The notes under the pieces: model-generated
Told to the model about the DNA's origin: nothing
Databases searched by the model: none
The model's input: only the letters and a program-made list of their open reading frames with translations
Made by a program: the position numbers and the translations under genes
Source: Oligoflexus sp.
GTDB taxonomy: Bacteria; Bdellovibrionota_B; Oligoflexia; Oligoflexales; Oligoflexaceae
Reading direction: 5' to 3'
Assembly (NCBI GenBank): GCA_041736305.1
Contig: JBGSTX010000005.1
Coordinates: 1 to 43,318, forward strand
DNA length: 43,318 bases
Shown here: one piece after another, positions 4,093 through 23,877 of the stretch
Layout of the letters: the number at the start of each line of letters is the position of its first letter
How positions within the stretch are numbered: position 1 is the first letter of the stretch

Positions 4093-4151
4093 TGAGCTCA
4101 GAGCTTTGGCTTGCAGCTCGCAAGCTATTCTCGAAGCACAGATGCCGATTG

Positions 4152-4214
4152 ATCGAGTAGGAGGGGCTTTCTCCCCGTCCTCTCACACCACCGTACGTAC
4201 GGATCCGTATACGG
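4152..4214 (-). mobile_element. Group IIC intron 3'-end remnant (domain V, domain VI, terminal AT)
   Basis: Minus strand reads CCGTA TACG GATC CGTA CG TACGG TGG TGT GAGAGGACGGGG AGAAAG CCCCTCCT A CTC GAT: a D5 hairpin with CG bulge, a D6 hairpin with bulged A and an AY end. The CGC triad is replaced by GAC and no RT ORF is nearby. Confidence 0.85.
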
Positions 4215-4481
4215 TCTGACGCCGAGCTTTAGCCCCGATTTCCCGGCCCTCGAACGATTGATAAAGTCAATGGCGGGGCCGGCACTCTTAGCTGGCATTA
4301 TCCCAGCGCAGCAGTTAGAAAAAGGGGGGAAAGAGGATTAAAGGACCCATTTTAAACTTGAGGCACTCTAAAAGCTAATCTCTCAAAAGGGTTTCCTTAA
4401 GCACAAATTACTAAATTTTCTCGGCAAACTGCCGACACGCTCACTCGGAGCTACGACCGAATCCTTAAGGGAGAATGCCTC

Positions 4482-7128: not shown

Positions 7129-7129
7129 G

Positions 7130-8170: not shown

Positions 8171-8303
8171 CTTGTTTCATTCCTAGCCGGAAATTTCAAA
8201 AACTTATGGATTTGCACCCATCCTATCAAGTCCGCGGTCTCGAGCGATAGCTCATTGATAGCGTTTAGAGATTTTGCTATTTTGAAGCATCAAGAATGAA
8301 AGG

Positions 8304-9656: not shown

Positions 9657-9666
9657 CGCGCGGCCC

Positions 9667-10659
9667 CTAGCTGTGGAGACTCTTTTTGAGTCGCGCAAAG
9701 CCCTCTTTCATGCTGACTCTCGCTTCGTAAGCAAGATCACGTTGGGCTGCAGCGGGATTATACCAGTGGGCTGTGCTCATCTGCGCCACCACAAAGCGCG
9801 TTAGAATCGGCTCGCTCTCAATTCTGAGAGTTCTGTAGACGGTCTCCAGAAGGCTAGCGAGTGCATACGCGACCCGAACATCGACATGTTTCGAAACGGG
9901 GGCTAGGCCCGCGGCGTCGAGGATACTGTTGATAATATCCCGCATAGGCCAGGGTTCGGCATTGCCGATGAAGTAGGCTTTGCCTCCGATCGGAGAGCCG
10001 GGTGCAAGACGATCGAAGGCACATACATGCGCCCACGCAGCATTTTCAACATAGACAGCATCTATCAGCTGCGTGGCTTCTCCCACAAGACGAAGGCGAC
10101 CTTTTCTCGCTCTATCGATAATGCGCGGGATCAGATGCGGATCACCCGGTCCCCAGATTAAATGGGGACGCAGAGCGCAGGTCGCTAGGTTTTTGTCGTT
10201 GGCTTGCAGAATCAACTGTTCAGCCTGCGCCTTAGTTTTTGGATAAGCCGCTAGAAAAGATGCAGGATAAGGCACAGACTCATCGACGTTCTCCTGATCT
10301 TTCCCATCGAAGCTAACGGATGGAGAGCTGGTATATACCAGCTGGGAGATTCCAAGTTCACGGCAGGCCCGAAGCACATTCTCGCTGGCTTGCACATTAG
10401 CGGCATAATAGGCATGCAAAGGGCCCCAGGCCCCGGCCTTAGCCGCTACATGGAATACGGCATCGACGCCGCGAAAGGCTTCCCTTACGGATTCATAATC
10501 GCCAAGATCAGCTTGAACGCAGCTGACTCCCATCGCCTCGAGATGAGGATAGCGGGCGCGGTTGATGCTGCGGAGCTGGTAGGGACGCGCCTTGAGTTCC
10601 TGCAGTATAGCAGTACCAAGAAAGCCGCCTCCTCCGGTCACCATTATAGTCTTACTCAC
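9667..10659 (-). CDS. oleD: OleD-family 2-alkyl-3-oxoalkanoate reductase (extended SDR, 3-beta-HSD-like)
   Basis: TGGGGFLG NAD(P) motif, HVAAKAGAWG, YTSSPSV, YPKTK, LRPHLIWGPGDPH. GTG start at 10659 overlaps the pfaC TGA (GTGA), so the first 70 codons of the listed ORF are probably not translated. Confidence 0.9.
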   Translation of the reverse strand: MSKTIMVTGGGGFLGTAILQELKARPYQLRSINRARYPHLEAMGVSCVQADLGDYESVREAFRGVDAVFHVAAKAGAWGPLHAYYAANVQASENVLRACRELGISQLVYTSSPSVSFDGKDQENVDESVPYPASFLAAYPKTKAQAEQLILQANDKNLATCALRPHLIWGPGDPHLIPRIIDRARKGRLRLVGEATQLIDAVYVENAAWAHVCAFDRLAPGSPIGGKAYFIGNAEPWPMRDIINSILDAAGLAPVSKHVDVRVAYALASLLETVYRTLRIESEPILTRFVVAQMSTAHWYNPAAAQRDLAYEARVSMKEGFARLKKSLHS

Positions 10660-13600
10660 GAGTTCGCTGCTTCTATCGACAGATGTTCTACTTTGTAGAT
10701 AGGAAGACCATCGCAGTAGAAAGTTCCCAGCGCTTCCAGTCTGCGATCGTCTGCCTTGCGGATTTGCAGAGCCATGCGGATCTCCTTGCTGTCGAGCCGC
10801 ACTTGGGCGCGATAGACCCAAGACTGCTTCGAACCCAGGGCCAGGCGCCAGCGCGGAACCTCTGGCCATCGGCGGTTAGCTTCTGCCATCAGCAGCTGCA
10901 GAAGCCCTTCGACTCCGAGCGAGCCAGGCATAATAGGATCTTCGAAGAAATGAGCGCGATAGTACCACTCGTCGGGATCTACCGCCTTGGCGCCGTAAAC
11001 CTTCTCGCCTGCGCTTTCCCAGGTTTCGACCATGCAGATCATCCCATGCGGGAGTGGAGAGATTACTGGATAAGGCTTTTCGATTCGCTGCTCTTCCCAG
11101 AGAGGAACGCCATGCAGAGGAAGCTGCTTGTTCAGAGATTCCCCCGCGAACATCCCAAACACAGTGCTGCCGCGATAAACTTCTCCCGACGCGTTGAAGA
11201 CCCGGAAGGCGAAATCATGGATGATGAAATCCCCACTACTGGTCATCTTCGTTACCGCAACTTCGATGGAGAGTCGTCCCGAGCCCCTGCGCACATCCTG
11301 GGAAAGTGTACCATCACCCGACAAATTCCGCAGTTTTAGGTCCTTCGGTGACTGCAGCGCGGTACCCATGTAGGCTGATAGAAAGCCGCAGGGTTGCAAA
11401 GCTATTTCCAAGAGAAGGGCCAAGGGCAAGGCGTCGTTGTAGAGTGGCCAGAACCAGGCATCGTCAGGGAGTTCATAATGAGCCAAGAGTCTTGTCCCTA
11501 CATGGGCTTCCATGAAGGGTCCTTCGACCCAGGCGACCGAATCAAGGAAACGGAAGGGTGGCCGAGGTAAACGAGGCATCTTCCGCGCTGCACCGCGATT
11601 AAAGATACTGTAATGCGGTCCAAAGCATTCAGATGGATCACCTTCGGACAAAGCCGCGACCTGTTCTGCCGTGAAACTCATCTTCTTTTGACTTTTCGAC
11701 CAGATTCCTTCCAGTTTCGACTGGGTGAAATGTGGGATTTTGAGACTCATGTCGATGATATCGACGATAGGTTTACCGTCGGCGTACATGAGAGCATCGC
11801 AGATTACGTAGGCGTCTGGTCCGTAACCGATTTCTTTGATCTCGATCTCATAGGTCGCCTTCTTCGTAGTCGCAAGCACCTGGCCCCGGCATTTCAACTG
11901 CGACCAGATACCCGGTACGGGAACAAAATCCTGTTCGCCGCTTTCCCCGACCCAACCTGAACGCATGAGAAAAACGCGCAGCGTATGGAGGCAGCACTCA
12001 TACATGAGCGTGCCGGGCATCACCTGGTCGTCAATGAAGTGACAAATAAGGAACCAGTTTTCGGGGTGCATGTCCGCTTCCCCAATGACTTTGCCGATTC
12101 CATAGCGTCCTCCGTTCGGGTCGATCTCCAAGATGCGGTGAACCAGTTTCATATCGCCCCCCGGTAGCGACTTCGGCTTCTCCAGGGGGAGTCCGGCGAA
12201 TTCAGCACCAAAACTCGCGACGTAGTCACCTCGCCGAAGAGCCTCAATCTGCATGTCGCTGAGGCTTTCCTTCCGCAAGGGTACAAACGGTGTATAGTTC
12301 CCGCTAACCTTACCGTGACCACCTTTTTCCTGCATCTTGCTGCGCTTGACACCCCGCCCTTCATTTAAAGCCGTTTCTGTGAAGAATCCAGCGCATCCAT
12401 CAACCATACTCATCATGGGCTTGTCATCGATGAAGGCCTCGAAGCTGAACTGGAAGAAGAGGGTCCCGTTCTGCTCGAAGAAGCGTTTTATCTCAATTTC
12501 GTAGCGAACCATCTCCCCGGCCCGCGGCAGCTCACGGAAAAAGCAGACCCGCGCATCGAGCAGACGGTACCCGGCATTACCTCGGGTTTGGAAATCTGAG
12601 CCGAGGAAAGCCGACAGCATGAGGTCGCCCTGCCCCGACTCGATGCAGATACTGGTCGGCATTACCTGGTCTTCAAGATACCAGGCGTCGGCATAGACAT
12701 CGTGTTCGGTGGTCATTTTGCCTGGACCCATGCTTTTCGATTCGCCTTCGATTTTCATCACCCGATGACAAAGCAGCAGTCGGTTGGCAGGCAGGCGCAC
12801 ACGCTTACTAAAACTATCGATCTCTGTGAAGTCCGGACCGAAAACATTGGCGATTTTGCCGTTAGCAAATTCCCGGCATGCGGCGTAGTCGTAGAGTGGG
12901 GGAGTTTTGTTGAAAGGCTCGTGGACCCAGGAGGAAGATTGCGATGGGTTTGTCCGATTTAGAAGCTCCAGAGCCGTGGCCAAAATACTTTGACCTTGCT
13001 CTACAAAGGCCACATATTGCTCTTGTATGGCGATGGCATCGAGCTGATCGCGTAAGAGATTGCTCAGTATCTGCTGTGCTGCAGAGCCTCTAACGGGTGC
13101 TTTATCCGCTGCTACGGGCGGTACCTGAGGCTCATCCGGCTCTGGCTCGGGCTTCTGCAGGAGCTGATTTAAAGGCAAGAGCACTTGATCCTTTCGAGGG
13201 ATCTGATAACTCTCACCTTCTACCTGTGAAGATGTGGAGACAGTCAAAGCTCCCGTCTGTTGCCATTTGACAGAGAGATCATGCTCACCTTTCAAAGTAT
13301 AAGAAGCTCGTCCGGATTCGCCTTTTTCCCAGATTTTGAGCAGCGAATGCAAGCCATGAGCCGCGCCTCGATAGGCGGAGCTGACGATGACTTTCTGGGC
13401 TGTCGCAGCTACTCTCTGCGTATGCGAAGGAATGATTTCTGACCATGCTGATCCATCGAGACTCAACCCCTTCTCGCCTTCCAAAAAAGCTTCGAGAGTT
13501 ACAGCCACGGGCAGACCTAATTCAAGGGCAAGACGCGCATCCATCAGGAGCAGCGCAACAGAACAGTCGGGTGCTTCCAGCCACTGTGTTCCGAAGCGCT

Positions 13601-15425
13601 CCAGCAGCTGACTGCGCGCTCTATGGCTGCCGACCATGTCAGTAGCCAGGACCAGGGAGGCTTCCAGATCACCGCGAGATACAAAGCGAAAAGCCAGCTC
13701 AAGTGCCTTCAGTCCTGAAGCTTCCGCCGCAGCGACCGTAAAGGAAGGACCTCCTGTCTGAAGCTCGCGGGCACAGCGCGAAGGCACGATACTCGCTAAA
13801 GAGCCCATGACCTGGTTGGCCTGGAGCGGTTGCATAAAGGGACTAAAATCGATTCCGGGGTGCTCGTTCTGTAGATCCCAGCGGACGGCAAATAAATTAG
13901 TTAGAGCATCGAGTTCCACCCCAAAAAAAATCCCGACTCGATTCAAATCCAGCTTTGGCAATCGACCGAGGCTACTCATTGCCAGCAGCGAGGCGATCTG
14001 CTGGGGTAGGATTTCCTTCATTTCCTTCGGGGGAATGCGGAACTGCCGGTACCCAAGTTCGAGATAATCGGCTCGAGGTATCAGGTCCGCAGCGCGCACC
14101 ACAGCGACTTTTTTGCGAGCGATAAGCGGAACCGGTCGCGCACTGTAATCGACACTATACTCTTCCAAAAGCAAATGAGCATTGATACCGCCGAAACCAA
14201 AGCCGCTGAGCGCGGCCCGGCGCAGAGGGCCTATAGCCTGCCAGGGCTCCGCCTTCTTCAGGATCCGGAGACCAGTGGCGGCAAGCTTCCAGCTTTCGGG
14301 TTCAGCTTCAAAATTTGCTGTGGGCCAGCATTTCTTCTCGCGGAGTGAAAGCAGGAGTTTGGCCAGTCCAGCGGTGCCGGCAGCGGTCAGCATATGACCG
14401 ATATTGCCTTTAACTGAGCCAATGACGGCGGGTGCATGCCCACGAATCTCGTGTAGGCTTCTGATTTCGGTACCATCGCCTAAAGGCGTTCCAGTTGCAT
14501 GACATTCAATAAGATTTATGGTTTTGGGATCCCAACCCGTCTCTAAGTAAGCCGCGCGCATAGCTCGGGTTTGCCCTTCCTGCGAAGGGGCCATGAGCCC
14601 TCCTTCCCGGTCGTTCGACAGCCCTATGCCGCGGATTACTGCCAGAATCGAGTCACCGTCTCTTTCGGCATCCTCGAGTCTCTTCAAAGCGAATATACCG
14701 GCGCCTTCGCCCACCATAAGACCATCGGCGCGGGCATCCAGTGGTCGCGAGACTCCCGCCCGAGAGAGCGCGCCGAGTGCATGAAACCCTACCTGCGTGA
14801 AGAGAGGATCAGGCCGACTCAGGCCCCCTGCCAGCACAAGATCGAGGCGATTTTCCATCAGCTCATCACTAGCGAGCTTCAACGCATAAAGCGAGGAAGC
14901 ACAAGCGGCGTCGAGGGTGAAGGTATTGCCGCTGATTCCTAGTGCGCGGGCGATCATCAGGCCAGGCATGGCGGCTGGTATGAGATTCACTGGATCGAGG
15001 CGAGAGAAGCTAAGTCCGCCTTGGCTTTTTACCCAATCGGCGGCCAGCTGATAAGACGCTTCGGTCGGGAGTGCGATATTCCCTATAATGATTCCGCAGC
15101 GATCCTTCGCATACCCAAGTGTTTTGCAGCCGCTAAAGGCATCGCGAGCGGCACCAATTCCTAGGTGAAAAACGGGATCAAGACGCTGCAGCAGCGTCTC
15201 TGGAATATTCAGTCCTGCGGCGTTTTCCTGCCATTTATCGACTCTATAAACCTTATTGTGTGCAAAACCTTCGTCCTCGGCTTTGCGCTTGCCTCGTTCA
15301 GCCCAGCGCTCGTTTTCGATCCTGCTGACTACATCTTGCGCGCCTTCGAGTATCTTCGCAAATTCGTCGAGACTTTTGGCAGCAGGAAAGCGTATACCAA
15401 CACTGACGATGGCGATAGATTTCAT
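10656..15425 (-). CDS. pfaC: PUFA synthase PfaC-like subunit: KS, degenerate CLF, FabA-like DH/pseudo-DH domains
   Basis: KS DAACASSL, ECHATGT, GHMLTAAG. CLF-like GPSFTVAAAEASGL lacking Cys. FabA-type CHFIDDQVMPGTL and AHFFEDPIMPGSLG. No recognisable AT GHSxG motif. Confidence 0.88.
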   Translation of the reverse strand: MKSIAIVSVGIRFPAAKSLDEFAKILEGAQDVVSRIENERWAERGKRKAEDEGFAHNKVYRVDKWQENAAGLNIPETLLQRLDPVFHLGIGAARDAFSGCKTLGYAKDRCGIIIGNIALPTEASYQLAADWVKSQGGLSFSRLDPVNLIPAAMPGLMIARALGISGNTFTLDAACASSLYALKLASDELMENRLDLVLAGGLSRPDPLFTQVGFHALGALSRAGVSRPLDARADGLMVGEGAGIFALKRLEDAERDGDSILAVIRGIGLSNDREGGLMAPSQEGQTRAMRAAYLETGWDPKTINLIECHATGTPLGDGTEIRSLHEIRGHAPAVIGSVKGNIGHMLTAAGTAGLAKLLLSLREKKCWPTANFEAEPESWKLAATGLRILKKAEPWQAIGPLRRAALSGFGFGGINAHLLLEEYSVDYSARPVPLIARKKVAVVRAADLIPRADYLELGYRQFRIPPKEMKEILPQQIASLLAMSSLGRLPKLDLNRVGIFFGVELDALTNLFAVRWDLQNEHPGIDFSPFMQPLQANQVMGSLASIVPSRCARELQTGGPSFTVAAAEASGLKALELAFRFVSRGDLEASLVLATDMVGSHRARSQLLERFGTQWLEAPDCSVALLLMDARLALELGLPVAVTLEAFLEGEKGLSLDGSAWSEIIPSHTQRVAATAQKVIVSSAYRGAAHGLHSLLKIWEKGESGRASYTLKGEHDLSVKWQQTGALTVSTSSQVEGESYQIPRKDQVLLPLNQLLQKPEPEPDEPQVPPVAADKAPVRGSAAQQILSNLLRDQLDAIAIQEQYVAFVEQGQSILATALELLNRTNPSQSSSWVHEPFNKTPPLYDYAACREFANGKIANVFGPDFTEIDSFSKRVRLPANRLLLCHRVMKIEGESKSMGPGKMTTEHDVYADAWYLEDQVMPTSICIESGQGDLMLSAFLGSDFQTRGNAGYRLLDARVCFFRELPRAGEMVRYEIEIKRFFEQNGTLFFQFSFEAFIDDKPMMSMVDGCAGFFTETALNEGRGVKRSKMQEKGGHGKVSGNYTPFVPLRKESLSDMQIEALRRGDYVASFGAEFAGLPLEKPKSLPGGDMKLVHRILEIDPNGGRYGIGKVIGEADMHPENWFLICHFIDDQVMPGTLMYECCLHTLRVFLMRSGWVGESGEQDFVPVPGIWSQLKCRGQVLATTKKATYEIEIKEIGYGPDAYVICDALMYADGKPIVDIIDMSLKIPHFTQSKLEGIWSKSQKKMSFTAEQVAALSEGDPSECFGPHYSIFNRGAARKMPRLPRPPFRFLDSVAWVEGPFMEAHVGTRLLAHYELPDDAWFWPLYNDALPLALLLEIALQPCGFLSAYMGTALQSPKDLKLRNLSGDGTLSQDVRRGSGRLSIEVAVTKMTSSGDFIIHDFAFRVFNASGEVYRGSTVFGMFAGESLNKQLPLHGVPLWEEQRIEKPYPVISPLPHGMICMVETWESAGEKVYGAKAVDPDEWYYRAHFFEDPIMPGSLGVEGLLQLLMAEANRRWPEVPRWRLALGSKQSWVYRAQVRLDSKEIRMALQIRKADDRRLEALGTFYCDGLPIYKVEHLSIEAANS

Positions 15426-15443: not shown

Positions 15444-17780
15444 TTAGGGACCTGTCCGCTCCAGAAGGATACGGTTAGCAAACGCTTGGATCAAAGTATC
15501 GGAAACCGTGGCTTCAAAACCAGTCATCCGTGCGATCAATTCGCCATTTCGCTTCCAGATATAGGCATCTGCCTGGAGCGAGTAACTGTCTGCTGCCCTG
15601 ATGCGAATTTCTAGTATAGCCTCTTGCGTAGACCAGGGCTCAAAGTATTCAAGCCTTGTGAAGCGGCTAGGCAATCCACGCGCACCCCGCTCTACGGCAA
15701 CCCAGACAATCGCGCCCTGAAAAATCGCATCAAGCAGAGGACCTTGGGCCTCGAATGAGCGACGGATATTCCAGTCTGTCGGATCACCATGCAGACGGAT
15801 TTCTGCCACCCAACGCTCGGGCGTGCTTTCCAAGACCCTTTCAATATAATGCAGTGATGGGCCATGGAAGAGTATATCGTAAGGTCGAATAGTTTCCGTC
15901 AGGGTTTTTTCATGGGGCACAAAAGCTTCAACTTCCCCCGTGGGGAATTCGGTATACAGTTCGAGAACTGCGCTCGCATGAAAGTCGGTGCTGCCCTTTG
16001 CATTGCGACTCCAGACGCGACCCTCGTAGCTTCCCGCTGAAGTTTCTCTCACTTCCACGGCTACCCGAACTTCGCTTTCGCTGCTCAGAACGATTCCCTT
16101 CCAGAGGCGAAAACTCTTCACGCCCGCGAATTTGCGGGTAGGAAAGCGCAAACGGGCGTTCTCCGCCAGCCATTCAAGCAGAAGCGCTACAGGCACTACT
16201 GCTCGGCCGTTGATTACGTGGTCGAGAAGCATAGGGGTTGTTCGCACACTGACCGAAATGTTGCCGAACGATCCGGAGAGGTGAGGTCTAACTATCTTCT
16301 GGCCACCTTCGCCGAGCACGAGCCATTGGCCAGACCCCAGCTGGGGGCGTTCCAAAATGTAGGTCTGGAGATCAGATCCGGCTGCCATCGGTATCGTACC
16401 GAGGCCTTCGCTGGCAAAGAGTTTTTTCAAACCATCATGTACCATGCCGCCGTCCCAGGGGCCCCAGTTCATAGCTATCGTGCGGCAAGATAATTTGGAG
16501 CTGAAATAGGCGCTCGTGAGATTCAAAATTTCATTGGCGAGACCATACGCCCCCTGGCCCTTGCGTCCCATCCGTGCTGTCGAAGAGGAGAAGAAGACCA
16601 CCCAACTCGTAGCGGCTTTCGCCAGCTCTTCGAAATAGGGGAGGATCCGAAGCTTAGTATCCAATACCTCTTGGAGCTCAGCCGGGCTTTGATCGACTAT
16701 AAATTTGTCGCGAATCACGCCGGCGCCATGTATGACGCCGCGGATTATTGGATAGCGTGAGCGCAAGCTTGCGAAGGCTGCACTCAGATGCTCGTCGCGA
16801 CTGACGTCGACCGCTTCATAGACAACCTCGGAGCCCAGATCTCGAAGCGACCGAAATGTAGCTTCGATCTCGCGCTGGGAAAGTAGAGCGCGATACGCCT
16901 TTTCCAAATCTCTTGGATGCTTTAGTGCGGGATTCAGACGCAAGAGTTCGAGTTTGAGTGGGGCTCCTTCCAGGCTTCGCGTACTGACTGCTTCTTCGGG
17001 AGCTAAGGGAGTCCTTCCCCAGATGACGAATCGTGCCACTTGGCTTTTGGCCAGAGACAGAAGAGTCGAAGCGGTGACTCCGCGCGCGCCGCCCGTTACG
17101 AGCACGGTGTCACCGGGCTTGAGGATTTCTTGCGGCTCTGGGTCAGTGAATGGCTCTTCGACCAAGGCTAGACGGTAATAGGCCGCACGCGTCAGGCCTA
17201 ACTCAATAGGACCTTCCAGCAGTGAGGCTTCTAAAGCGGCTTTTGCCGTGTCGGGCACACTGCCGAAATCCCTGGCTATATCAATGGCGCGCGTATGAAC
17301 ATTAGACCATTCATGGGAGATCGTTTTAGCGAGAGAAGCTAAACTTCCGGCGAAAGCTTGGGCCAAGGAATCGAGACCCTCTTGAGCTAACAATCCGGAG
17401 TTCTCTTGAATCGTGACGAAAAATCCTTTGTGATTCTGTAAAGGGGCGGCGGCTCTAGCCAGCAGTTGATACGATAGGCCCAGCCCGTGAAACGGCTGCT
17501 CATCTGTGGGGCTGAAGAGATAGATTCCTCTGAGGTCCTCGGGGGCCCTTCGCTCTGCGGCTTCCGCCAGGGTCAGATGCTTGCTCGTGCAGGTCCACTT
17601 TCTAAGCAGACTGAGCAGTTCTATAGCCAGTGGATTATCCTGAGGACTGATAACCCATACTGTGCCCTGAGAGGGTTGCTCAATGCGGTTCGGTCCTGGT
17701 ATCCAGACTTCAGCTTCCAGTTTCCAGCAGCCTACTTGGGATAAGTCCAGTTCCGCCTTGAGCTTCTCAGGGCTTAGACT
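15444..17780 (-). CDS. pfaA: PfaA C-terminal part (KR + PKS-type DH), in the -1 frame relative to the upstream pfaA ORF
   Basis: VLVTGGARGV, HGAGV, FSS, YGLAN (KR); DHVINGRAVVP and DAIFQ (DH). The frame is open without stops for 129 codons upstream of the listed TTG at 17393, back to the A7 run, with no ATG/GTG/TTG in that stretch. Confidence 0.85.
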   Translation of the reverse strand, partial: SLSPEKLKAELDLSQVGCWKLEAEVWIPGPNRIEQPSQGTVWVISPQDNPLAIELLSLLRKWTCTSKHLTLAEAAERRAPEDLRGIYLFSPTDEQPFHGLGLSYQLLARAAAPLQNHKGFFVTIQENSGLLAQEGLDSLAQAFAGSLASLAKTISHEWSNVHTRAIDIARDFGSVPDTAKAALEASLLEGPIELGLTRAAYYRLALVEEPFTDPEPQEILKPGDTVLVTGGARGVTASTLLSLAKSQVARFVIWGRTPLAPEEAVSTRSLEGAPLKLELLRLNPALKHPRDLEKAYRALLSQREIEATFRSLRDLGSEVVYEAVDVSRDEHLSAAFASLRSRYPIIRGVIHGAGVIRDKFIVDQSPAELQEVLDTKLRILPYFEELAKAATSWVVFFSSSTARMGRKGQGAYGLANEILNLTSAYFSSKLSCRTIAMNWGPWDGGMVHDGLKKLFASEGLGTIPMAAGSDLQTYILERPQLGSGQWLVLGEGGQKIVRPHLSGSFGNISVSVRTTPMLLDHVINGRAVVPVALLLEWLAENARLRFPTRKFAGVKSFRLWKGIVLSSESEVRVAVEVRETSAGSYEGRVWSRNAKGSTDFHASAVLELYTEFPTGEVEAFVPHEKTLTETIRPYDILFHGPSLHYIERVLESTPERWVAEIRLHGDPTDWNIRRSFEAQGPLLDAIFQGAIVWVAVERGARGLPSRFTRLEYFEPWSTQEAILEIRIRAADSYSLQADAYIWKRNGELIARMTGFEATVSDTLIQAFANRILLERTGP

Positions 17781-17801
17781 TTTTTTCTGCTTGCTTCTCC
17801 T
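17745..17801 (-). promoter_or_regulatory. Putative programmed -1 ribosomal frameshift signal
   Basis: AGGAG (17801-17797), 10 nt, A AAA AAA (17786-17780) in the 0 frame, 6-nt spacer GTCTAA containing the 0-frame stop, hairpin GCCCTGAG-AAG-CTCAAGGC (17773-17755), possible outer helix GTCTA/TGGAC. Confidence 0.65.
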
Positions 17802-20800
17802 ATGCCCTGCTGCTGGGAGCTAGTTTCAAGAAAACGCAGAAGCTCACTGAGGGTGCGCACATTTTCGACGGGCACATCCCGGATTTCGGGAATCTTGCTC
17901 GTGAGGCTGGCCATGATTTCGACTCTTTTTATGGAGTCGATGCCTAGATCTGCTTCGAGATCCATACTCGGGTCCAATACCTGCTGCGGATAGCCGGTCT
18001 TGTCGGCGATGACTTGCCAGAGAAGAGACTTAAATTTTGGGGTCTGCGCCTCGGGTACTGATAGGCCTGCCCTTGCGCCGAGATGGGCAATGATATCAGA
18101 GATCTTTTGCATTTCACTGAGGCTTTGCTCTTGTAGCTGGGCCTCTTTGAATGCATTACGAAGCTCAGAGAAAATTTCAACCTTCTTGATCGAGTCGATG
18201 CCAAGATCGCTTTCAAGCTCCATATCATCACTGAGAGTATGGATAGGAAAACCGGTTTTTTCGGCGATAGTCTGTAGAATCTTCGTGCGAACGTCGGGAT
18301 TGCTGTCGGCCGGACTTGCCGCTGGAGCTGCTGACGCGACTAGGCTTGCTGCGAGCGCCTGAGTCGCAGTCGATCCCGTGAACTGAATGAGATCTGCTAT
18401 GGTCTGGGCTTCACGAATCGGACCTGCTGCTACGTCTAGCTCGGGAAAAGCCTTGGAAATTGCTGAAAGGATTTCCACTTTTTTGATTGAATCGATGCCT
18501 AAATCGCTTTCGAGCCCCATGTCTTCGGAGAGGGTAGTGACGGGAAATCCCGTGGCGTCGCTGATAAGCTTGAAGATCAACCGACTACTGGCTGCATTCG
18601 CTGGCGCTGCCGCGCTTGTGCCATGTGCATAGCTTTTTTGCTCGAGCAGAGAGTTGGTGTTTGAAAGAGCATGGCTATTGCGATCTGCGGGCACGATGCC
18701 GAAATTTGCTGCATAAGCGGATGCTGCCTGCACTGCCTGCGCCGCTTGAGCCGCTTGAGCCGCTTGAGCTGCTTGTGCTGCTTGTGCTGCTTGTGCCGCC
18801 TGCGCTGCCTGAGCTGCCTGCGCCGCTTGATCTGATTTCGCTACAGGGAGGCCTTGTGCTGAGTAGGCCGAAGCTAAAGGAGATGCATAAGACGAAGCTG
18901 CTTGAGATCCAGATCTACCAGCTCCTGCCGGCCCTTGCTGCGCGCTATTCGTCAGGGCCCCTGTCTGCTTCGAAAATGCAAGTTCAGCTTCGACGGTACG
19001 AGCAAACGCCGACTGGCGCTCCATATCTCTTGTAGCCTTGCTCAAGTCCATACGGCTCAGCGTGGAAGCGACCAGGCCTTCGCCGCCCCTAAGTGCATCG
19101 TGAATAATCTGCTGGAACTGGCGCTGATTCGCGAGGAACTGTGCCTGCACCTCAGCGGCTTTCCTCTGAGTCTCCTGCATATCGAGGAGGAATTTTTCAA
19201 GCACCGTCACATTTATTTCTGTGGACATTGTTTGAACCCTTTGTGTGTTATGCGAAGCCTTTGGCATTTCATATCTACGGTGATGAGCAAGACCTGGGAC
19301 TGCTACGGGTCCGGGCTCAGGTGTTGCGAGGTGGCCCAATACCGCCTCAAACCCAGGCTTTAATTCTGGTCCCGCTACAGGACTTACGCGCGATTCTAAC
19401 CCAGCTTGTGAAGCAGCAGAGCCAATCTTCCGCTCAGGCTTGGCCACTGCCGCTCTTTCCGACTCTAATGCAGGCACTTTTCTACTAGTGTCAGAACGGT
19501 AATTGGCACCCGTCAGCCAGACCTTAAAAGCATCTTTCTCCGCCGCCACGATCTCGACACCAGGATCCCAACGCACCAGATCCAAGTCCATGCCTCGAAC
19601 GGCAAGTTCACCAACCAACGCCGCAAGGCCCAGCATGCTGTCGCGTTTGTCGCTATCCAGCGAAAGAGCCTGTTTGTCACAGGCCTTCAAGAGTCGACTC
19701 AACTTCTGTCCCGGGCCTATTTCAACGAGAGTGATTTCCCGATCCTTGCGCACAGCCTGCAGCATCTCGTGAAAGCGAACCGGCATGGCTAGCTGGGCCG
19801 AGAGCGTTTTCTGGAGGCCTTCAGCAGGGTATGCTTTGGCCAGAAGGTTACTGTAGACAGGGACTTCGGGCTTCTTAAAGTGCACGTGCTGGCCCAACCA
19901 ACGATCGAAACCACTTTCCGCGGCGCTCACATATTCAGAGTGAAAAGCTGTACTCACATTGAGGACAGCCGACGAAATATTCACCTTCGCGAGCTGCTCG
20001 ACTAGAACATGAATTTCCGCCGTCGCGCCGCCGACCACTACCTGCTCAGGAGAATTAAAATTTACTATCTTCAGGCTGCTTGCACTCGCTCTGATCAAGT
20101 CTTCAACGCGTTCTTGAGAAGCCAGGATCGCCAGCATAGAACCACCTTTGCTTCCCAGCTGCTCAATTAGCAGACCTCGTTGATAAGAAGCGCGCAGCGT
20201 CTCCTCCAGTGACATGACCCCGGCCGCGTACAGAGCTAGCAGTTCACCATAGGAATGTCCAGCCGTGACAGACGGCCGTATACCGAAGCTCTTTAAGATC
20301 GAAATCACAGCTGTACCGACGCAACCCAACGCTAGCTGCGTGATCCGAGTCGCCGTCAGCCGCTGAGAAAATAACTCCTTATCGTTGCCAAAGGCCTGCG
20401 GAGGATAAATATAGTCCATCAGCGAAGGACCATTACTTTCATGCTCTTCGAGAATCCGCGAAGCCAGAGACAAACTCTCCAAAGCCTCAGGAAAACTTAC
20501 CATCAGCTCCCGCAGCATACCGGGTGCTTGTGAGCCCTGGCCTGCAAAAATCATCGCCAACTGAGCCTGCGGTGCCGCCTGCGAATAGGCTACCCCGTTG
20601 ACGGACACACCTTCCTCTACCGCCTTTTTTGCCTCAGTAAGCCGCTGTTTCAGTTCTGGAAGTCCTTTGGCCCAGATTGCGAGCCGATGGGCGTGCTTAG
20701 CGGCGAACTTTCGTCGAGACTGGCGAGCTATAGTCTGCGCATGGTAGGTGCATGCCGGGGTCTCCAAGAGCTTAGATGCAGCGAGAAAAGAACTCATAAG

Positions 20801-22270
20801 AGCTTCTCTCGAATCTCCCGAAAAACTTAGCAAGAAGAGATCCTGATTCCAAAGTCGAGGTTTGTCGTCGGCTTTGTATTCTTCAAGCACGCAGTGATAA
20901 TTGCTTCCACCAAATCCAAAAGCGCTAACCGCTGCATAGCGAGGCTTGCCAAGTCGTGGAATCCAGGGTCGAGGCCTATCAAGCAATTGAAAAGGTCCCC
21001 CCACCAGATGGGGGTGAAGCCGCTGCACTTTAATAGTCGGAGTCTGGATTTTTTGATGCAGAGCCATCACGCACTTGATAAGCCCAGCTGCCCCAGCGGC
21101 GGCCTTGGTATGTCCAATCTGGGATTTTACAGATCCGATCACACAGGACTTTCTATTATGCTGGCCAAATATCTTGGTCAGCGACTCGGCTTCGATACCA
21201 TCTCCTACCTTGGTCCCCGTCCCATGCGCTTCCACTAATTCAATGGCAGCTGAATCGATATCTGCATCGTCGTAGGCTCTTTGAATCGCCTTGATCTGAC
21301 CTTTGACTGCCGGGGTATAGATGGCTTTACCCTTACCGTCGCTCGCTGACCCAAAGCCCCGGATGACAGCATAGATCTTGTCTCCATCGCGCTCCGCGTC
21401 CTCGAGTCGCTTCAGGATTACGACGCCCAGGCCTTCACCCAGAACCGTGCCATCGCCGTCTGCATCGAAGGGCCGGGAGTGACCGCTCGGTGAGAGAGCA
21501 GGAGTTTTACTGAAGCACATGTACATAAAGATGTCGTTGAACGTGTCCATTCCACCGGTGATCACCATATCGCAGCGACCCGTCTGGAGTTCCATGACCG
21601 CGACCTGAATCGCCGCCAATGAACTCGCACAGGCCGCATCGACGACCGAATTACTGCCGCCGAGATTGAGGCGGTTCGCAATGCGCCCAGCGACGACATT
21701 ACCTAAGAGTCCTGGGAAGGATGCTTCCTGCCAAGAGACATAGGAATTGGCGATTTCGTCCATCACCTCTTTGGCGACGTCGTCGGCTACTCCAGCATTT
21801 TTTAGGGCTTTTTTCCACTTTGGATGCCCGAGGCGGGCGCCGAGCGGAATCACTAGCTCGAGAGTGCCTGTCACACCGATAATGCAGGAAGTCCGATCAC
21901 GATCGAAATTGGCATCCGGCCCGTAGCCAGCATCGACAAGAGCTTCATGGGCGCAGACCATGCCCAGCAGCTGCGTGGAATCGGTCGCTTCAAGCGTGTG
22001 GGGCGCAATTCCATAGCGTAGGGGTTCGAAGGCGAAGGGCTTTAGAAATCCACCCGTCTGCGAATAGGTACGATCGGGAGTCTTGGGATCGGCGTGAAAG
22101 TATTCTTCCGGACTCCAATGGCTCAGTGGAATAGGACTTATAGCATCCTTCCCCTGAATAATGTTTCTCCAGTATTCTTGGAGGTTGGCTGCCTCGGGAA
22201 ACATGCACGACATACCGATGACTGCGATCCCATTCTTCGACCTATCCCCAACCCTCCCTCGCTTGTTCAT
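17774..22270 (-). CDS. pfaA: PUFA synthase PfaA N-terminal part: KS, MAT, linker, 3 x ACP
   Basis: KS DAACASSL, EAHGTGT, GHTKAAAG; MAT FAGQGSQ, GHSYGE, AFHS; three LE(S/A)DLGIDSIK(K/R)VEI ACP motifs. ATGA overlap with the pfaD stop. Confidence 0.95.
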   Translation of the reverse strand: MNKRGRVGDRSKNGIAVIGMSCMFPEAANLQEYWRNIIQGKDAISPIPLSHWSPEEYFHADPKTPDRTYSQTGGFLKPFAFEPLRYGIAPHTLEATDSTQLLGMVCAHEALVDAGYGPDANFDRDRTSCIIGVTGTLELVIPLGARLGHPKWKKALKNAGVADDVAKEVMDEIANSYVSWQEASFPGLLGNVVAGRIANRLNLGGSNSVVDAACASSLAAIQVAVMELQTGRCDMVITGGMDTFNDIFMYMCFSKTPALSPSGHSRPFDADGDGTVLGEGLGVVILKRLEDAERDGDKIYAVIRGFGSASDGKGKAIYTPAVKGQIKAIQRAYDDADIDSAAIELVEAHGTGTKVGDGIEAESLTKIFGQHNRKSCVIGSVKSQIGHTKAAAGAAGLIKCVMALHQKIQTPTIKVQRLHPHLVGGPFQLLDRPRPWIPRLGKPRYAAVSAFGFGGSNYHCVLEEYKADDKPRLWNQDLFLLSFSGDSREALMSSFLAASKLLETPACTYHAQTIARQSRRKFAAKHAHRLAIWAKGLPELKQRLTEAKKAVEEGVSVNGVAYSQAAPQAQLAMIFAGQGSQAPGMLRELMVSFPEALESLSLASRILEEHESNGPSLMDYIYPPQAFGNDKELFSQRLTATRITQLALGCVGTAVISILKSFGIRPSVTAGHSYGELLALYAAGVMSLEETLRASYQRGLLIEQLGSKGGSMLAILASQERVEDLIRASASSLKIVNFNSPEQVVVGGATAEIHVLVEQLAKVNISSAVLNVSTAFHSEYVSAAESGFDRWLGQHVHFKKPEVPVYSNLLAKAYPAEGLQKTLSAQLAMPVRFHEMLQAVRKDREITLVEIGPGQKLSRLLKACDKQALSLDSDKRDSMLGLAALVGELAVRGMDLDLVRWDPGVEIVAAEKDAFKVWLTGANYRSDTSRKVPALESERAAVAKPERKIGSAASQAGLESRVSPVAGPELKPGFEAVLGHLATPEPGPVAVPGLAHHRRYEMPKASHNTQRVQTMSTEINVTVLEKFLLDMQETQRKAAEVQAQFLANQRQFQQIIHDALRGGEGLVASTLSRMDLSKATRDMERQSAFARTVEAELAFSKQTGALTNSAQQGPAGAGRSGSQAASSYASPLASAYSAQGLPVAKSDQAAQAAQAAQAAQAAQAAQAAQAAQAAQAAQAVQAASAYAANFGIVPADRNSHALSNTNSLLEQKSYAHGTSAAAPANAASSRLIFKLISDATGFPVTTLSEDMGLESDLGIDSIKKVEILSAISKAFPELDVAAGPIREAQTIADLIQFTGSTATQALAASLVASAAPAASPADSNPDVRTKILQTIAEKTGFPIHTLSDDMELESDLGIDSIKKVEIFSELRNAFKEAQLQEQSLSEMQKISDIIAHLGARAGLSVPEAQTPKFKSLLWQVIADKTGYPQQVLDPSMDLEADLGIDSIKRVEIMASLTSKIPEIRDVPVENVRTLSELLRFLETSSQQQGIGEASRKKV
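18722..18829 (-). repeat. 12 x 9-bp tandem repeat encoding (QAA)10-QAV-QAA in the PfaA MAT-ACP linker
   Basis: Units CARGCNGCN read directly, varying almost only at synonymous positions. Confidence 0.95.
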
Positions 22271-23877
22271 GAAAAAGACTCCTGAGCTTTTATCAGCTCT
22301 TCACCCGAGCGTGGATCAGTAAGGCCTTCCCAGGCTGGATCGCGAAGCCCCATAAAATTCAGCTGGCGAATTCTCTGCAGGAGCGCGGCCGAGTACATAA
22401 TATTGGCTCCTACTAGGGCCGCCCGCCTTGCCTTCGCGGCTTCGAGCGGACTACCTTTGACCCAAGCATTGAATGCGGCCATAGCCGGGCCACACCAAAT
22501 CTGATAATCAAGCCGACGGCTGCTGTCACCGCGGATTGCCCAATGCGAGGCTTGCCCCAGATAGGAGCGGAAGAGCAAAGCCATCTTGAATTTAGGGTTG
22601 GTCTCAGCCCTTTCTAGCTGGGAGGGATCACGGGCTTGAAAGAAGGCCCTTGTTGAATCCCAGGCTTCCTCGATGCTGCAGCGGAAAAAGCTGGCTTCGA
22701 GCTGCTGCCGCTCTTTCAGCGAAATACCTTCAAGATTGGGATGACTTCGATAAATTTCGTAAAGCTTCTGGGCCCGCATCGGGAACATGGTGCCCTTTTT
22801 AAGCACCTGTAGCTTCACCCCTAGCTCGAACATGTCCGCCGCAGGAGCCATCATAAAATCGCTCTGCTCGGTCTCGGCCAGCATTGCTCGAACTTCATCG
22901 CTAGTGCCGGATTCCACGCAAGCCTGATTGATCGATCCCGTCACAACGTAAGCTGCACCCATAGAAAAGGCAGCCAGCGCCGACTGGGGGGTGGAAATTC
23001 CACCAGCAGCTCCTAAACGGAGCCGGTCCTGATAGTGGTACTCTCGCTCCAGCTGAGCTTTTATCTGCAACATGAGAGGCAGCAAAGTAACGAGAGGTCT
23101 ATTGTCGGTGTGACCTCCAGAATCAGCTTCCGCGGTGAGGTCTTGAGCCATAGGAACGAGCTGGGCCAGCTCAAATTCCTGAGCGGTAATTGCCCCCTCG
23201 GCTAGCAGCGTATCGAGAATAGGCCGGGGTGCGGGTGACCAGAACAAACGGGCAAGCTCGACGCGAGATACTTTCGCAATGATTTTCTGAGGACTGACGA
23301 TGCCACCGCTGCCATCGCGATGAAGGTTCTTTACGCGATAGCGAACCAGGGCCTTGGTGAGGGACATGAAAGCCGAAGCTTCGACCAGATTGACCCTTTT
23401 ATGCAAAAGCAGATCGCAGATCTTATCTTCTACTGCCAGTTCTTGGGGACTATGAATAAAATTCACCGCAAAAGTCTTCGCACCCAGGGCGCTCTGCAGC
23501 TCGTCGATGGCCTTTTCCACAAGACCCAACCCTAGACCGGCGGCGCCGAAAGAAGCAAGCATCCCCTGACTGGCCAGAGCCTTGACCAAGGCAACACTTG
23601 AAATACCATGCGCCATGGATCCTGCCATATAGGGAAGGCTCAGCTGATGGGCATCAGTAAAATGACGATCACCAAGATCTCGAGGATGGATTCTAGGCAG
23701 AAAGATCTGTTTTCTATCCAGTGAGACTTCGAGCTCGTCCTGAATTCTAATAATTGCAGTAGCATTCAGATTTTTCATGGCGTGCAAGTCTTTCGTTGAT
23801 AAGTCACTTGTATATCGGAGATTTATTGGAATAGCTGAGTTGCTAGGCATGAAGTTGAGCTTCTCGCTCGCTCGCAA
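22267..23877 (-). CDS. pfaD: PUFA synthase enoyl reductase PfaD (FabK-like); real start probably a downstream ATG
   Basis: AGSMAHGISS, EASAFM, AKVSRVE, EADSGGHTD, AAGGISTP, TGSINQ, APAADMFELG, DYQIWCGPAM. Confidence 0.95.
   Translation of the reverse strand: MRASEKLNFMPSNSAIPINLRYTSDLSTKDLHAMKNLNATAIIRIQDELEVSLDRKQIFLPRIHPRDLGDRHFTDAHQLSLPYMAGSMAHGISSVALVKALASQGMLASFGAAGLGLGLVEKAIDELQSALGAKTFAVNFIHSPQELAVEDKICDLLLHKRVNLVEASAFMSLTKALVRYRVKNLHRDGSGGIVSPQKIIAKVSRVELARLFWSPAPRPILDTLLAEGAITAQEFELAQLVPMAQDLTAEADSGGHTDNRPLVTLLPLMLQIKAQLEREYHYQDRLRLGAAGGISTPQSALAAFSMGAAYVVTGSINQACVESGTSDEVRAMLAETEQSDFMMAPAADMFELGVKLQVLKKGTMFPMRAQKLYEIYRSHPNLEGISLKERQQLEASFFRCSIEEAWDSTRAFFQARDPSQLERAETNPKFKMALLFRSYLGQASHWAIRGDSSRRLDYQIWCGPAMAAFNAWVKGSPLEAAKARRAALVGANIMYSAALLQRIRQLNFMGLRDPAWEGLTDPRSGEELIKAQESFS

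What the first reader, a model, noticed from the sequence alone, without database searches (positions are those of the whole stretch)
17393..17822. PUFA synthase PfaA apparently split by a programmed -1 ribosomal frameshift, giving KS-MAT-ACP3 with or without KR-DH
Seen: the 1498-aa ORF ends AGA AAA AAA GTC TAA right after the third ACP. The -1 frame opens after a TAG at 17822-17820 and runs stop-free into the KR-DH ORF, with no ATG/GTG/TTG for 129 codons past the A run. The 45-nt overlap window holds an in-frame A_AAA_AAA heptamer (17786-17780), an internal AGGAG exactly 10 nt upstream, and a hairpin (GCCCTGAG-AAG-CTCAAGGC) 6 nt downstream. Established: this SD + slippery site + stem-loop layout matches E. 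coli dnaX and IS3-family -1 frameshifting, though A_AAA_AAG is the more efficient heptamer in E. coli. Inference: two proteins, 1498 aa and about 2275 aa (...SRKK|SLSPEKLKAE...), which would set the ratio of KS/ACP to KR-DH or provide a non-reducing acyl-carrier form for OleA. I know of no described recoding in a PUFA synthase.
Basis: partly seen in the sequence, partly recalled or inferred. Interest (0 to 1): 0.92.

Follow-up and report, generated by a model that had tools for sequence, protein, structure and literature searches.

The report
Poly-A slippage site splitting PUFA synthase PfaA
A fatty-acid megasynthase gene in this Oligoflexus genome is split at a run of seven A's, at the spot where related bacteria keep a rare 9-12 A run, so the run is probably a conserved slippage signal that makes a short and a long enzyme from one gene.

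Summary
On the minus strand a 1498-aa KS-MAT-ACP3 frame ends AGA AAA AAA GTC TAA. The KR-DH frame is open in -1 from 17819 to 15444, with no canonical start for about 129 codons.

The context is new. The window is from an Oligoflexus-like MAG. Eleven of 11 same-genus orthologues have one intact about 2240-2500-aa pfaA. All 11 carry A10 or A11 at the same ACP-KR linker site, although such runs number only 3-8 per genome.

Eight other Oligoflexia genomes have pfaA split at this poly-A (A6G, A9, A10). Nine of 9, window included, need -1 and have an in-phase A_AAA_AAA/G. Four form one old clade that is uniformly -1.

So a conserved recoding site is well supported for the family. For this window it rests on context. 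A7 is the shortest pure run and no close relative exists. A second assembly of the same reads also gives A7.

A recent one-base deletion or a read error is not excluded. No recoding in a PUFA synthase or polyketide synthase turned up in print.

The parts
17774..22270 (-). 0-frame ORF, 1498 aa: KS, acyltransferase (MAT) and three ACPs. It ends ...SRKKV, then TAA.
17780..17786 (-). A7 run, in phase as A_AAA_AAA. It is the only slippery heptamer in the 0/-1 overlap. It is orthologous to the A10/A11 run (KKK) of same-genus pfaA genes.
17774..17776 (-). TAA stop of the 0 frame, one codon after the run.
17820..17822 (-). TAG that closes the -1 frame upstream. Any shift must therefore occur between 17819 and 17777.
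15444..17819 (-). -1 frame, 791 codons open: linker, KR and PKS-type DH. It is 46-50% identical to the C-terminal part of intact same-genus PfaA.
17797..17801 (-). AGGAG, 10 nt upstream of the run. A possible Shine-Dalgarno-like stimulator; not tested against chance.
17755..17773 (-). Weak hairpin 6 nt downstream: 7 pairs with a C.A mismatch, -8.1 kcal/mol, z -1.47.
17391..17393 (-). First canonical start codon (TTG) in the -1 frame. It lies after the conserved N-terminal part of the KR region.
22267..23877 (-). pfaD-like enoyl reductase gene directly upstream (FabD_helical_ins and NMO matches).
10656..15425 (-). pfaC-like gene directly downstream (two KS-type stretches, FabA-like dehydratases).

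Best explanation
The A7 run is this genome's version of a conserved poly-A slippage site. The site lies in the linker between the last ACP and the KR domain of PfaA in the class Oligoflexia.

Standard decoding stops one codon after the run. It gives a 1498-aa KS-MAT-ACP3 protein.

A minority of events moves reading into the -1 frame. Either the ribosome slips back one base on A_AAA_AAA, or RNA polymerase adds one extra A. The result is a full-length KS-MAT-ACP3-KR-DH protein of about 2275 aa (...SRKK|SLSPEK...).

Relatives with A10-A12 in frame would make the same two products, with the default reversed: a slip there truncates the protein a few codons on.

What is shown: the sequence anatomy, the conservation of the run, the recurrent -1 arrangement, and the intact KR-DH frame.

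What is inferred: that slippage occurs at all, its rate, and that both products are used. A7 gave about 10% in E. coli reporters of other genes. For the window I put ribosomal against transcriptional slippage at roughly 55:45.
For: 1. The run is conserved at the nucleotide level.
- In 11 of 11 same-genus loci the linker KKK is AAA AAA AAA with a flanking A. That gives A10 in 6 loci and A11 in 5, while neighbouring codons vary synonymously.
- AAA makes up only 47-81% of Lys codons in these genes.
- The naive product is 7e-8, with kinship ignored.

2. Such runs are rare.
- Distinct A/T runs of 10 or more number 3, 6 and 8 in three relatives. One in each is the pfaA site.
- G000 has 9 such runs, and one is the in-frame A10 of its own pfaA paralogue.

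3. The split recurs.
- Nine pfaA loci in Oligoflexia are split at this site: the window, G019, G014:C36, G032, G044, G042, G052, G095 and G096.
- Nine of 9 need -1 and have an in-phase A_AAA_AAA or A_AAA_AAG.
- In G014:C36 a -1-frame TAA overlaps the start of the run, so the shift must happen inside the run.

4. The split is old.
- The split genes are 27-55% identical to each other and dS is saturated.
- Their -1 frames stay open for 746-848 codons. The G042 locus is the exception; it has a second frame break.
- Four form one clade (support 99) that is uniformly -1.
- This meets the comparative criterion of Baranov et al. 2005 (PMC1088944, section 7 read).

5. Independent initiation is unlikely. 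The first canonical start lies 129, 153 and 75 codons after the run in the window, G044 and G032. That is beyond the conserved start of the KR region.

6. The window's KR-DH is maintained. It keeps 38 of 40 invariant and 63 of 73 near-invariant columns.

7. A7 is reproduced by an independent assembly of the same reads: a 4187-nt contig with 0 differences and 0 gaps.

8. The two shortest runs both have a Shine-Dalgarno-like motif 10-13 nt upstream. G019 has the classic A_AAA_AAG plus a -20.5 kcal/mol stem 6 nt downstream (z -3.0, 0 of 200 shuffles). G052 has a 12-bp stem 4 nt downstream (z -4.1).

9. Only tRNA-Lys(UUU) was found among 36 tRNAs. The genome is 92.7% complete.
Against: - The window's nearest relatives are all in frame. 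Its -1 state is seen in one genome only.
- No closer relative exists: the best are 46% identity in the protein collection and 33% in metagenome contigs.
- A7 is the shortest pure A run of the set. It is below the roughly 9 bases at which RNA-polymerase slippage is efficient (PMC1088944 abstract; PMC5009743 passages).
- The window's downstream hairpin is not above chance. No conserved RNA structure was found around the runs. Rfam gave nothing.
- The genome has a second, in-frame pfaA paralogue, so this copy could be dispensable.
- The window's KR-DH has diverged somewhat more than its KS-MAT part. The identity ratio is 0.74-0.76, against 0.87-0.93 among in-frame relatives. Its branch in the tree is long.
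- Depth is only about 8, and both assemblies rest on one read set.
- There is no RNA or protein evidence.
Confidence: 0.6

Rival explanations
1. A recent, non-programmed one-base deletion (A8 to A7) in a mutable poly-A tract. The window copy would be a broken or 'off' allele making only KS-MAT-ACP3, with the second pfaA paralogue doing the work. A DNA-level phase-variable switch is the population version of the same idea.
For: - The nearest relatives are in frame.
- A paralogue with an in-frame A10 exists in the same genome.
- The window's KR-DH is slightly faster-evolving.
- Homopolymer tracts are known indel hot spots (PMC3711429, passage read).
Against: - 778 codons downstream carry no stop, and 101 of 113 conserved columns are kept. 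Any deletion would have to be very recent.
- The extra divergence of KR-DH is not what neutral decay looks like in a frame that is still open.
- Nine of 9 splits go the same way, to -1.
- A whole old clade (4 of 4) is -1 with no in-frame member. That does not fit on/off switching.
- No length variant was seen in the contigs, though contigs drop rare variants.
Confidence: 0.22
2. A sequencing or assembly error. The true DNA would have A8 and one intact pfaA of about 2275 aa.
For: - The genome is a 392-contig MAG.
- Depth at the site is about 8.
- A8 would restore exactly the relatives' architecture.
Against: - An independently built contig from the same run gives A7 with 0 differences over 1970 bases.
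- The same MAG assembled an in-frame A10 in its paralogue.
- No other homopolymer-linked gene break was found in 5.02 Mb.
- Eight other genomes, from other assemblies, show the same -1 arrangement.
Confidence: 0.1
3. Two separate subunits by design. KR-DH would be translated on its own from the TTG at 17393 or from a non-canonical codon, as in bacteria annotated with pfaA1 and pfaA2.
For: A pfaA1A2BCD arrangement is named in a figure legend for Psychroflexus torquis (PMC3914696, passage read). So split PfaA may be tolerated.
Against: - No canonical start for about 129 codons. Homology to fused relatives starts right at the run.
- Starting at 17393 would remove the conserved N-terminal part of the KR region.
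- This idea gives no reason for a poly-A run to sit in every overlap, 9 of 9.
Confidence: 0.05

Closest known systems
dnaX tau/gamma recoding (E. coli -1 ribosomal frameshift at A_AAA_AAG with SD and stem-loop; Thermus thermophilus transcriptional slippage on a homopolymer run; 'reversed' dnaX genes where the long product needs the shift)
   Same: - One gene gives a short and a long protein that share the N-terminus.
- The poly-A/Lys slippery site sits at a domain boundary.
- Homologues alternate between in-frame and shifted arrangements. In the reversed type the 0-frame stop comes directly after the site, as in the window (PMC5009743, passages read).
- G019 has the same heptamer, a GGAGG 13 nt upstream and a stem 6 nt downstream.
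   Different: - The gene family is different: a PUFA megasynthase, not a replicase subunit.
- The window has A_AAA_AAA and only a weak hairpin.
- No product has been observed.
Citrobacter rodentium tssM1 (type VI secretion): an A11 run before a premature stop, decoded by transcriptional slippage into two length variants, both of them needed
   Same: - It is a chromosomal, non-mobile gene with a poly-A run just before the 0-frame stop.
- The full-length protein needs extra A's in the mRNA.
- The ratio of the two forms matters (PMC4256274, abstract read).
   Different: - The run is A11 there and A7 in the window. Relatives with A9-A10 in -1 are the closer match.
- It was shown experimentally there. 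Here the case is comparative only.
IS3/IS630-type and other poly-A frameshift clusters found by comparative genomics (Baranov 2005; Antonov 2013)
   Same: - Overlapping ORFs are conserved, with a conserved A-run in the overlap.
- Efficiency rises with run length: 11 A 63%, 9 A 40%, 7 A 10% in E. coli reporters (PMC3711429, passage read).
   Different: - This is not a mobile element.
- No polyketide or PUFA synthase cluster is named in the main texts I searched.
Canonical bacterial PfaA (KS-MAT-ACPn-KR-DH in one polypeptide)
   Same: - Same domain order once the two frames are joined.
- pfaD-like and pfaC-like genes sit on either side.
   Different: - The reading frame is interrupted here.
- I found no described poly-A feature for PfaA.

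Membership tests
PUFA synthase subunit PfaA | Domain order KS-MAT-tandem ACP-KR-DH | tested here: met
   Pfam finds KS N and C, Acyl_transf_1 and 3 PP-binding stretches in the 0-frame ORF. It finds KR, PKS_DH_N and PS-DH in the -1 frame. The order is met only if the two frames are read as one protein.
PUFA synthase subunit PfaA | Clustered with pfaC-like (KS/CLF plus FabA-type DH) and pfaD-like (enoyl reductase) genes | tested here: met
   10656-15425 has KS and FabA stretches. 22267-23877 matches FabD_helical_ins and NMO.
PUFA synthase subunit PfaA | Makes polyunsaturated acyl chains; needs a PfaE-type phosphopantetheinyl transferase | not tested
   The product is unknown and no PPTase was looked for.
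Programmed -1 ribosomal frameshift site (dnaX/IS3 type) | In-phase X_XXY_YYZ heptamer inside the 0/-1 overlap | tested here: met
   A_AAA_AAA at 17786-17780 is in phase. Reading by eye, it is the only such heptamer between 17819 and 17777.
Programmed -1 ribosomal frameshift site (dnaX/IS3 type) | The shifted ORF arrangement is conserved in non-identical homologues | tested here: inconclusive
   Met for the family: 8 other Oligoflexia genomes, including a 4-member clade that is all -1. Not met for the window's own lineage: the nearest relatives are in frame, and none is closer than 46-50%.
Programmed -1 ribosomal frameshift site (dnaX/IS3 type) | Stimulators: an SD-like element about 10 nt upstream, or a stable structure 5-8 nt downstream | tested here: inconclusive
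   AGGAG is present 10 nt upstream but was not tested against chance. The hairpin is -8.1 kcal/mol, z -1.47, 21 of 200 shuffles as good. Strong stems occur in G019 and G052 and none in G095 or G096.
Programmed -1 ribosomal frameshift site (dnaX/IS3 type) | A trans-frame protein is made at a set ratio | not testable with these tools
   No proteome is available and no RNA run was listed.
Programmed transcriptional slippage (Thermus dnaX, tssM1, mxiE type) | A homopolymer A/T run of about 9 or more | tested here: not met
   The window has A7. Relatives meet it: A9-A10 in seven split genes and A10-A12 in 13 in-frame genes.
Programmed transcriptional slippage (Thermus dnaX, tssM1, mxiE type) | mRNA population heterogeneous in run length | not testable with these tools
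   No RNA holder was listed. Only contigs could be laid on the window.
Phase-variable (contingency) gene with a homopolymer tract | Tract length varies among reads or close strains, with on and off states mixed among close kin | tested here: inconclusive
   No length variant appeared in the contigs of the one run that holds the sequence, but contigs drop rare variants. The class II clade is 4 of 4 -1 and the same-genus loci are 11 of 11 in frame. That argues against frequent switching.

The most novel reading that the evidence does not exclude
PfaA of Oligoflexia carries a conserved recoding signal, a poly-A run at the ACP-KR boundary. In-frame runs in some Desulfobacterales and Riflebacteria suggest the same there.

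Through RNA-polymerase and/or ribosomal slippage, the run would set a fixed ratio of two proteins. One is a KS-MAT-ACPn 'carrier' protein. The other is the full-length KS-MAT-ACPn-KR-DH.

In-frame and -1 arrangements would be interchangeable over evolution, as in dnaX. This would be the first programmed recoding described in any fatty-acid or polyketide megasynthase.
Probability: 0.6. Interest if true: 0.85.

Novelty: new member of a known kind. Interest (0 to 1): 0.74.

Why it matters
Conserved recoding in ordinary chromosomal genes is rare; dnaX, prfB and a few secretion-system genes are the usual examples. Here is a candidate in a biosynthetic megasynthase.

If real, three things follow.
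- Genes of this kind annotated as 'frameshifted' or 'pseudogene' pfaA in Oligoflexia MAGs are working genes.
- The amount of KR-DH relative to KS-MAT-ACP is set at decoding rather than by gene order. That bears on how PUFA synthase subunits assemble.
- From recall, no call: ACP number and subunit balance limit PUFA yield in engineered hosts, so this would bear on that work too.

The claim can be tested directly. At least one relative in my sample (G006) is a single-contig genome, possibly from a cultured strain, and it carries an in-frame A11.

Tried and rejected
- **RNA evidence.** No RNA holder was listed for the pfaA stretch, so nothing can be said on expression or mRNA heterogeneity.
- **Raw reads.** None were available. 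Only contigs of one run hold the stretch, and that run is probably the source sample. Two other runs of the same study hold next to none of it.
- **Closer relatives.** The metagenome scan gave 31 loci, the best at 33% identity. The search of 5.8 billion proteins gave a best non-self hit of 46%. Conservation of the window's own A7/-1 state could therefore not be tested.
- **Conserved RNA structure.**
  - Six A10 Oligoflexus loci have an upstream hairpin, CUGAG...CUCAG, ending 3 nt before the run. Its outer stem is invariant. Its inner stem shows one compensatory change and several mismatches.
  - The A11 clade has no consensus fold.
  - I rejected this as evidence. It stays a lead for hairpin-stimulated transcriptional slippage.
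- **Rfam.** Only two far-sub-threshold chance matches.
- **Other genes broken at homopolymers in G000.** Two further candidates turned out to be unrelated neighbouring genes.
- **A -1 form in a second phylum.**
  - In a sample of 251 Desulfobacterales genomes, 196 had a match.
  - I fetched 13 short-frame cases. Seven were cut by contig ends.
  - The 6 readable ones were breaks at N-runs or inside the ACP repeats. None was at a linker poly-A.
- **Stops in the alternative frames after in-frame runs.** They come 1-11 codons on in -1 and 3-24 in +1. That is sooner than the gene-wide median in 19 of 20 loci for -1, but each single value is unremarkable.
- **Careful IQ-TREE search.** It did not finish, so I used its quick tree and a FastTree tree. 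L146 and four class II loci were left out of one or the other, because a motif filter missed them.
- **Supplementary tables.** Those of PMC3711429 and PMC1088944 were not open to me. They might list a synthase cluster.
Full report
**1. What is in the window**

All coordinates are on the minus strand.

- The ORF 22270..17774 encodes 1498 aa and ends ...GIGEASRKKV (AGC AGA AAA AAA GTC TAA).
- Pfam finds KS (N and C), an acyltransferase domain and three PP-binding stretches in it.
- The -1 frame is closed by TAG at 17822-17820. It is then open for 791 codons to the stop at 15444.
- That frame holds KR, PKS_DH_N and PS-DH.
- Its first ATG/GTG/TTG is the TTG at 17393, about 129 codons after the run.
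- The A7 run (17786-17780) is in phase as A_AAA_AAA.
- AGGAG (17801-17797) lies 10 nt upstream.
- A 7-pair hairpin with one mismatch (17773-17755) starts 6 nt downstream.
- A pfaD-like and a pfaC-like gene flank the pair.

The hairpin, however, is weak: -8.1 kcal/mol, z -1.47, and 21 of 200 shuffles fold as well.

**2. Is A7 real?**

- The window is contig C102 of a 392-contig genome of 5.02 Mb, 92.7% complete.
- Only one public run holds the stretch. It is a hot-spring metagenome kept as contigs and is probably the source sample.
- Its independently built 4187-nt contig (depth about 8) covers 16800-18769 with 0 differences and 0 gaps. So a second assembler reading the same reads also gives A7.
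- The same genome assembled an in-frame A10 in a pfaA paralogue on contig C346.
- I scanned all 3120 strand-wise homopolymer runs of 7 or more for a switch between two long frames. Ten candidates came up. Only this one lacks a start codon within about 31 codons.
- The next two candidates are unrelated neighbouring genes: a CAAX protease beside an endonuclease I, and an unknown gene beside a TatD DNase.

The assembly is not error-prone at homopolymers. An error shared by the whole read set still cannot be excluded.

**3. Same-genus relatives**

- Record titles of the two best public matches name Oligoflexus.
- A search of 41 related genomes found the KR-DH part in 27, including 13 of 13 other genomes of the genus.
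- The orthologues lie in single open frames of 2237-2502 aa where contigs allow. The nearest relatives are therefore intact.
- Homology to them changes frame in the window between 17825 and about 17795-17741.
- The relatives' linker reads ...EWDLS[SA]KKK[SP]... or ...DWDLSKKKNP....
- In all 11 of 11 such loci the three lysines are AAA AAA AAA.
  - Six have an A-ending codon before the lysines (TCA or GCA), giving A10.
  - Five have AAT after the lysines, giving A11.
  - The neighbouring codons differ synonymously: GAT/GAC, CTC/CTG, AGT/AGC.
- AAA is only 47-81% of lysine codons in these genes. The naive chance of 33 AAA codons is 7e-8, an overstatement because the genomes are kin.
- Runs of ten or more A/T are very rare in these genomes. 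There are 3, 6 and 8 distinct runs in G005, G002 and the single-contig G006, and one in each is the pfaA site.
- G000 has 9 such runs, one of them in its pfaA paralogue.
- The window's ...SRKK|S... aligns with the relatives' ...S[S]KKKS... The conserved ...CWKL... motif follows 15 residues later, against 18 in relatives. The A7 run is thus the orthologue of their A10.

**4. Other split genes**

I searched 95 genomes of the order and 131 of the phylum and fetched every KR-DH match that had a short open frame. This turned up eight more pfaA genes split between the last ACP and KR:

| Genome | Site |
|---|---|
| G019 | GCA AAA AAG |
| G014:C36 | A9 |
| G032 | A9 |
| G044 | A10 |
| G042 | A9; poor assembly with a second frame break |
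| G052 | A10 |
| G095 | A10, then G |
| G096 | A10 |

- With the window, 9 of 9 need a -1 shift and 9 of 9 have an in-phase A_AAA_AAA or A_AAA_AAG.
- The only element shared by all the overlaps is the run. In G014:C36 a -1-frame TAA overlaps the first bases of the run.
- The split genes are only 27-55% identical to each other, and synonymous sites are saturated.
- Even so, eight of the nine -1 frames stay open for 746-848 codons. The G042 locus is the exception.
- In a FastTree tree of 37 KR-DH sequences:
  - G014:C36, G032, G044 and G052 form one clade (support 99) with no in-frame member.
  - G096 and G019 sit elsewhere.
  - The window sits inside the in-frame A10 Oligoflexus clade (support 100) (the quick IQ-TREE tree agrees for the window).
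- So the -1 state arose at least four times, or was kept for a very long time.
- Canonical start codons are far downstream in the window (+129), G044 (+153) and G032 (+75). That is beyond the conserved ...IWIxDDG... start of the KR region. Separate initiation is therefore not a general answer.

Tally of the 28 Oligoflexia loci I could read:
- 13 have the run in frame (A10-A12).
- 9 have it in -1.
- 6 have no run of 7 or more in the linker.

**5. Beyond the class**

- I took 77 PfaA-like loci from many phyla, out of 80 retrieved by protein pattern alone. In these, 10 of the 11 A/T runs of 10 or more lie 20-120 residues after the last ACP serine.
- That stretch is 6.7% of the sequence. The binomial P is 1.8e-11, with kinship ignored.
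- Nine loci carry them: two Oligoflexus, five Desulfobacterales, one Riflebacteria and one unnamed. All are in frame.
- In a sample of 251 Desulfobacterales genomes I found no clean -1 form. The six interior short frames I could read were breaks at N-runs or inside the ACP repeats.

**6. Reading**

The pattern has three parts: a rare run kept at the nucleotide level, a recurrent and old -1 arrangement with both halves intact, and no start codon for the second half.

This is the comparative signature that Baranov et al. use for functional slippage: the same ORF organisation and the same A-run in non-identical homologues (PMC1088944, section 7 read).

It also parallels dnaX. E. coli uses A_AAA_AAG with an SD and a stem. 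Thermus uses RNA-polymerase slippage on a homopolymer run. A minority of bacteria have the long product made by the shift, with the 0-frame stop directly after the site (PMC5009743, passages read).

A second parallel is Citrobacter tssM1. There an A11 run before a premature stop gives two length variants, and both are needed (PMC4256274, abstract read).

In published E. coli reporters of other genes, the shift rose with run length: 11 A 63%, 9 A 40%, 7 A 10% (PMC3711429, passage read). If that holds here:
- A10-A11 genes would give roughly equal amounts of the two products whichever frame is the default. That would explain why both arrangements persist.
- In in-frame genes a slip meets a stop within 1-11 codons (-1) or 3-24 codons (+1).

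**7. The window itself**

For recoding:
- The window has the family context described above.
- The 0-frame stop lies one codon after the run.
- The KR-DH frame is open and conserved, keeping 38 of 40 invariant and 63 of 73 near-invariant columns.
- The two shortest runs, the window and G019, both have an SD-like motif 10-13 nt upstream.
- G019 also has a strong stem 6 nt downstream: -20.5 kcal/mol, z -3.0.
- Only tRNA-Lys(UUU) was found among 36 tRNAs. The single-tRNA situation is linked to slipperiness in E. coli (PMC5009743 passage), though the genome is incomplete.

Against recoding:
- The -1 state is a singleton.
- A7 is short.
- The hairpin is not significant.
- A paralogue could cover for a broken copy.
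- The window's KR-DH has diverged somewhat more than its KS-MAT part. The identity ratio is 0.74-0.76, against 0.87-0.93 among in-frame relatives.

That extra divergence, in a frame still free of stops over 778 codons, is not what long neutral decay would leave. So either the shift is recent or the frame is translated.

My odds:

| Explanation | Probability |
|---|---|
| Functional recoding | 0.60 |
| Recent deletion or off-state | 0.22 |
| Read or assembly error | 0.10 |
| Separate initiation | 0.05 |

For the window I lean slightly to ribosomal -1 slippage over RNA-polymerase slippage. For the A9-A12 relatives the reverse is at least as likely.

**8. Novelty**

- Five full-text searches found no paper describing recoding or a poly-A tract in a PUFA synthase or polyketide synthase. 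The searches were pfaA with frameshift; transcriptional slippage with polyketide synthase; PUFA synthase with slippage, frameshifting, recoding or homopolymeric; polyunsaturated fatty acid synthase with frameshift; and Oligoflexus with polyunsaturated.
- The held part of the 2016 recoding review has no mention of polyketide, fatty acid or acyl carrier.
- The main text of Antonov 2013 names only a polyketide cyclase, under translational coupling.
- One paper's figure legend names pfaA1 and pfaA2 in Psychroflexus. I could not check whether that split lies at the same site.

The mechanism is of a known kind. The gene family and the in-frame/-1 duality in a megasynthase appear to be new.

Noticed in passing
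window 304-10869 and 23990-26257: The pfa genes sit among lipid-modifying genes. These are a lipoxygenase (304-2175, -), a fatty-acid desaturase (4482-5489, +) and an AMP-binding OleC-like enzyme (5461-7128, +). There is also a FabH/OleA-like thiolase (7130-8170, -), a cytochrome P450 (8304-9656, +) and a 3-beta-HSD/OleD-like reductase (9667-10869, -). An MMPL-like membrane protein lies at 23990-26257 (-). Together they suggest an oxidised or olefinic PUFA-derived product.
   Followed up: partly
window about 18640-18800 (minus strand, inside the 0-frame ORF): A (Q-A-A)n repeat, AQAAQAAQ... about nine times, lies before the ACPs. The independent contigs of run X1 end or branch exactly here, with loose ends at 18749-18799. 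The repeat copy number may therefore be uncertain.
   Followed up: no
window 10656-10869: The listed OleD-like ORF (9667-10869) overlaps the end of the pfaC-like ORF (10656-15425) by 214 nt. Its true start is probably further in.
   Followed up: no
G000 contig C346, 15031-19270 (locus L105): The same genome has a second pfaA paralogue, 40% identical in KR-DH. It has three ACPs and an in-frame A10 (GGA AAA AAA AAA GAA...NWDLSGKKKES...) at the same linker site. The contig ends inside the gene.
   Followed up: partly
L007 (G006:C1, about 4,918,500-4,919,270): In the single-contig Oligoflexus genome, the linker right after the A11 run holds a long tandem peptide repeat (AAKEAEHVRVG... many times). 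It makes this PfaA 2502 aa long.
   Followed up: no
L059, L070, L073, L082, L083, L090, L097 (genome-contig loci): PfaA genes of several Desulfobacterales, one Riflebacteria MAG and one unnamed MAG carry in-frame A10-A11 runs 50-101 residues after the last ACP serine. L090 has two such runs.
   Followed up: partly
L144 4240-4266 (G052): A perfect 12-bp hairpin (UCAUCUCCCUUC-AGG-GAAGGGAGAUGA) starts 4 nt after the A10 run of this split pfaA. It has -19.3 kcal/mol and z -4.1.
   Followed up: partly
P0015, P0027, P0038, P0063, P0079, P0097, P0107, P0113: Many stand-alone KR-DH proteins of about 650-870 aa are called on long contigs (24-92 kb) from other phyla. Named sources include Elusimicrobia and Mariprofundaceae. 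They may be further split pfaA genes.
   Followed up: no
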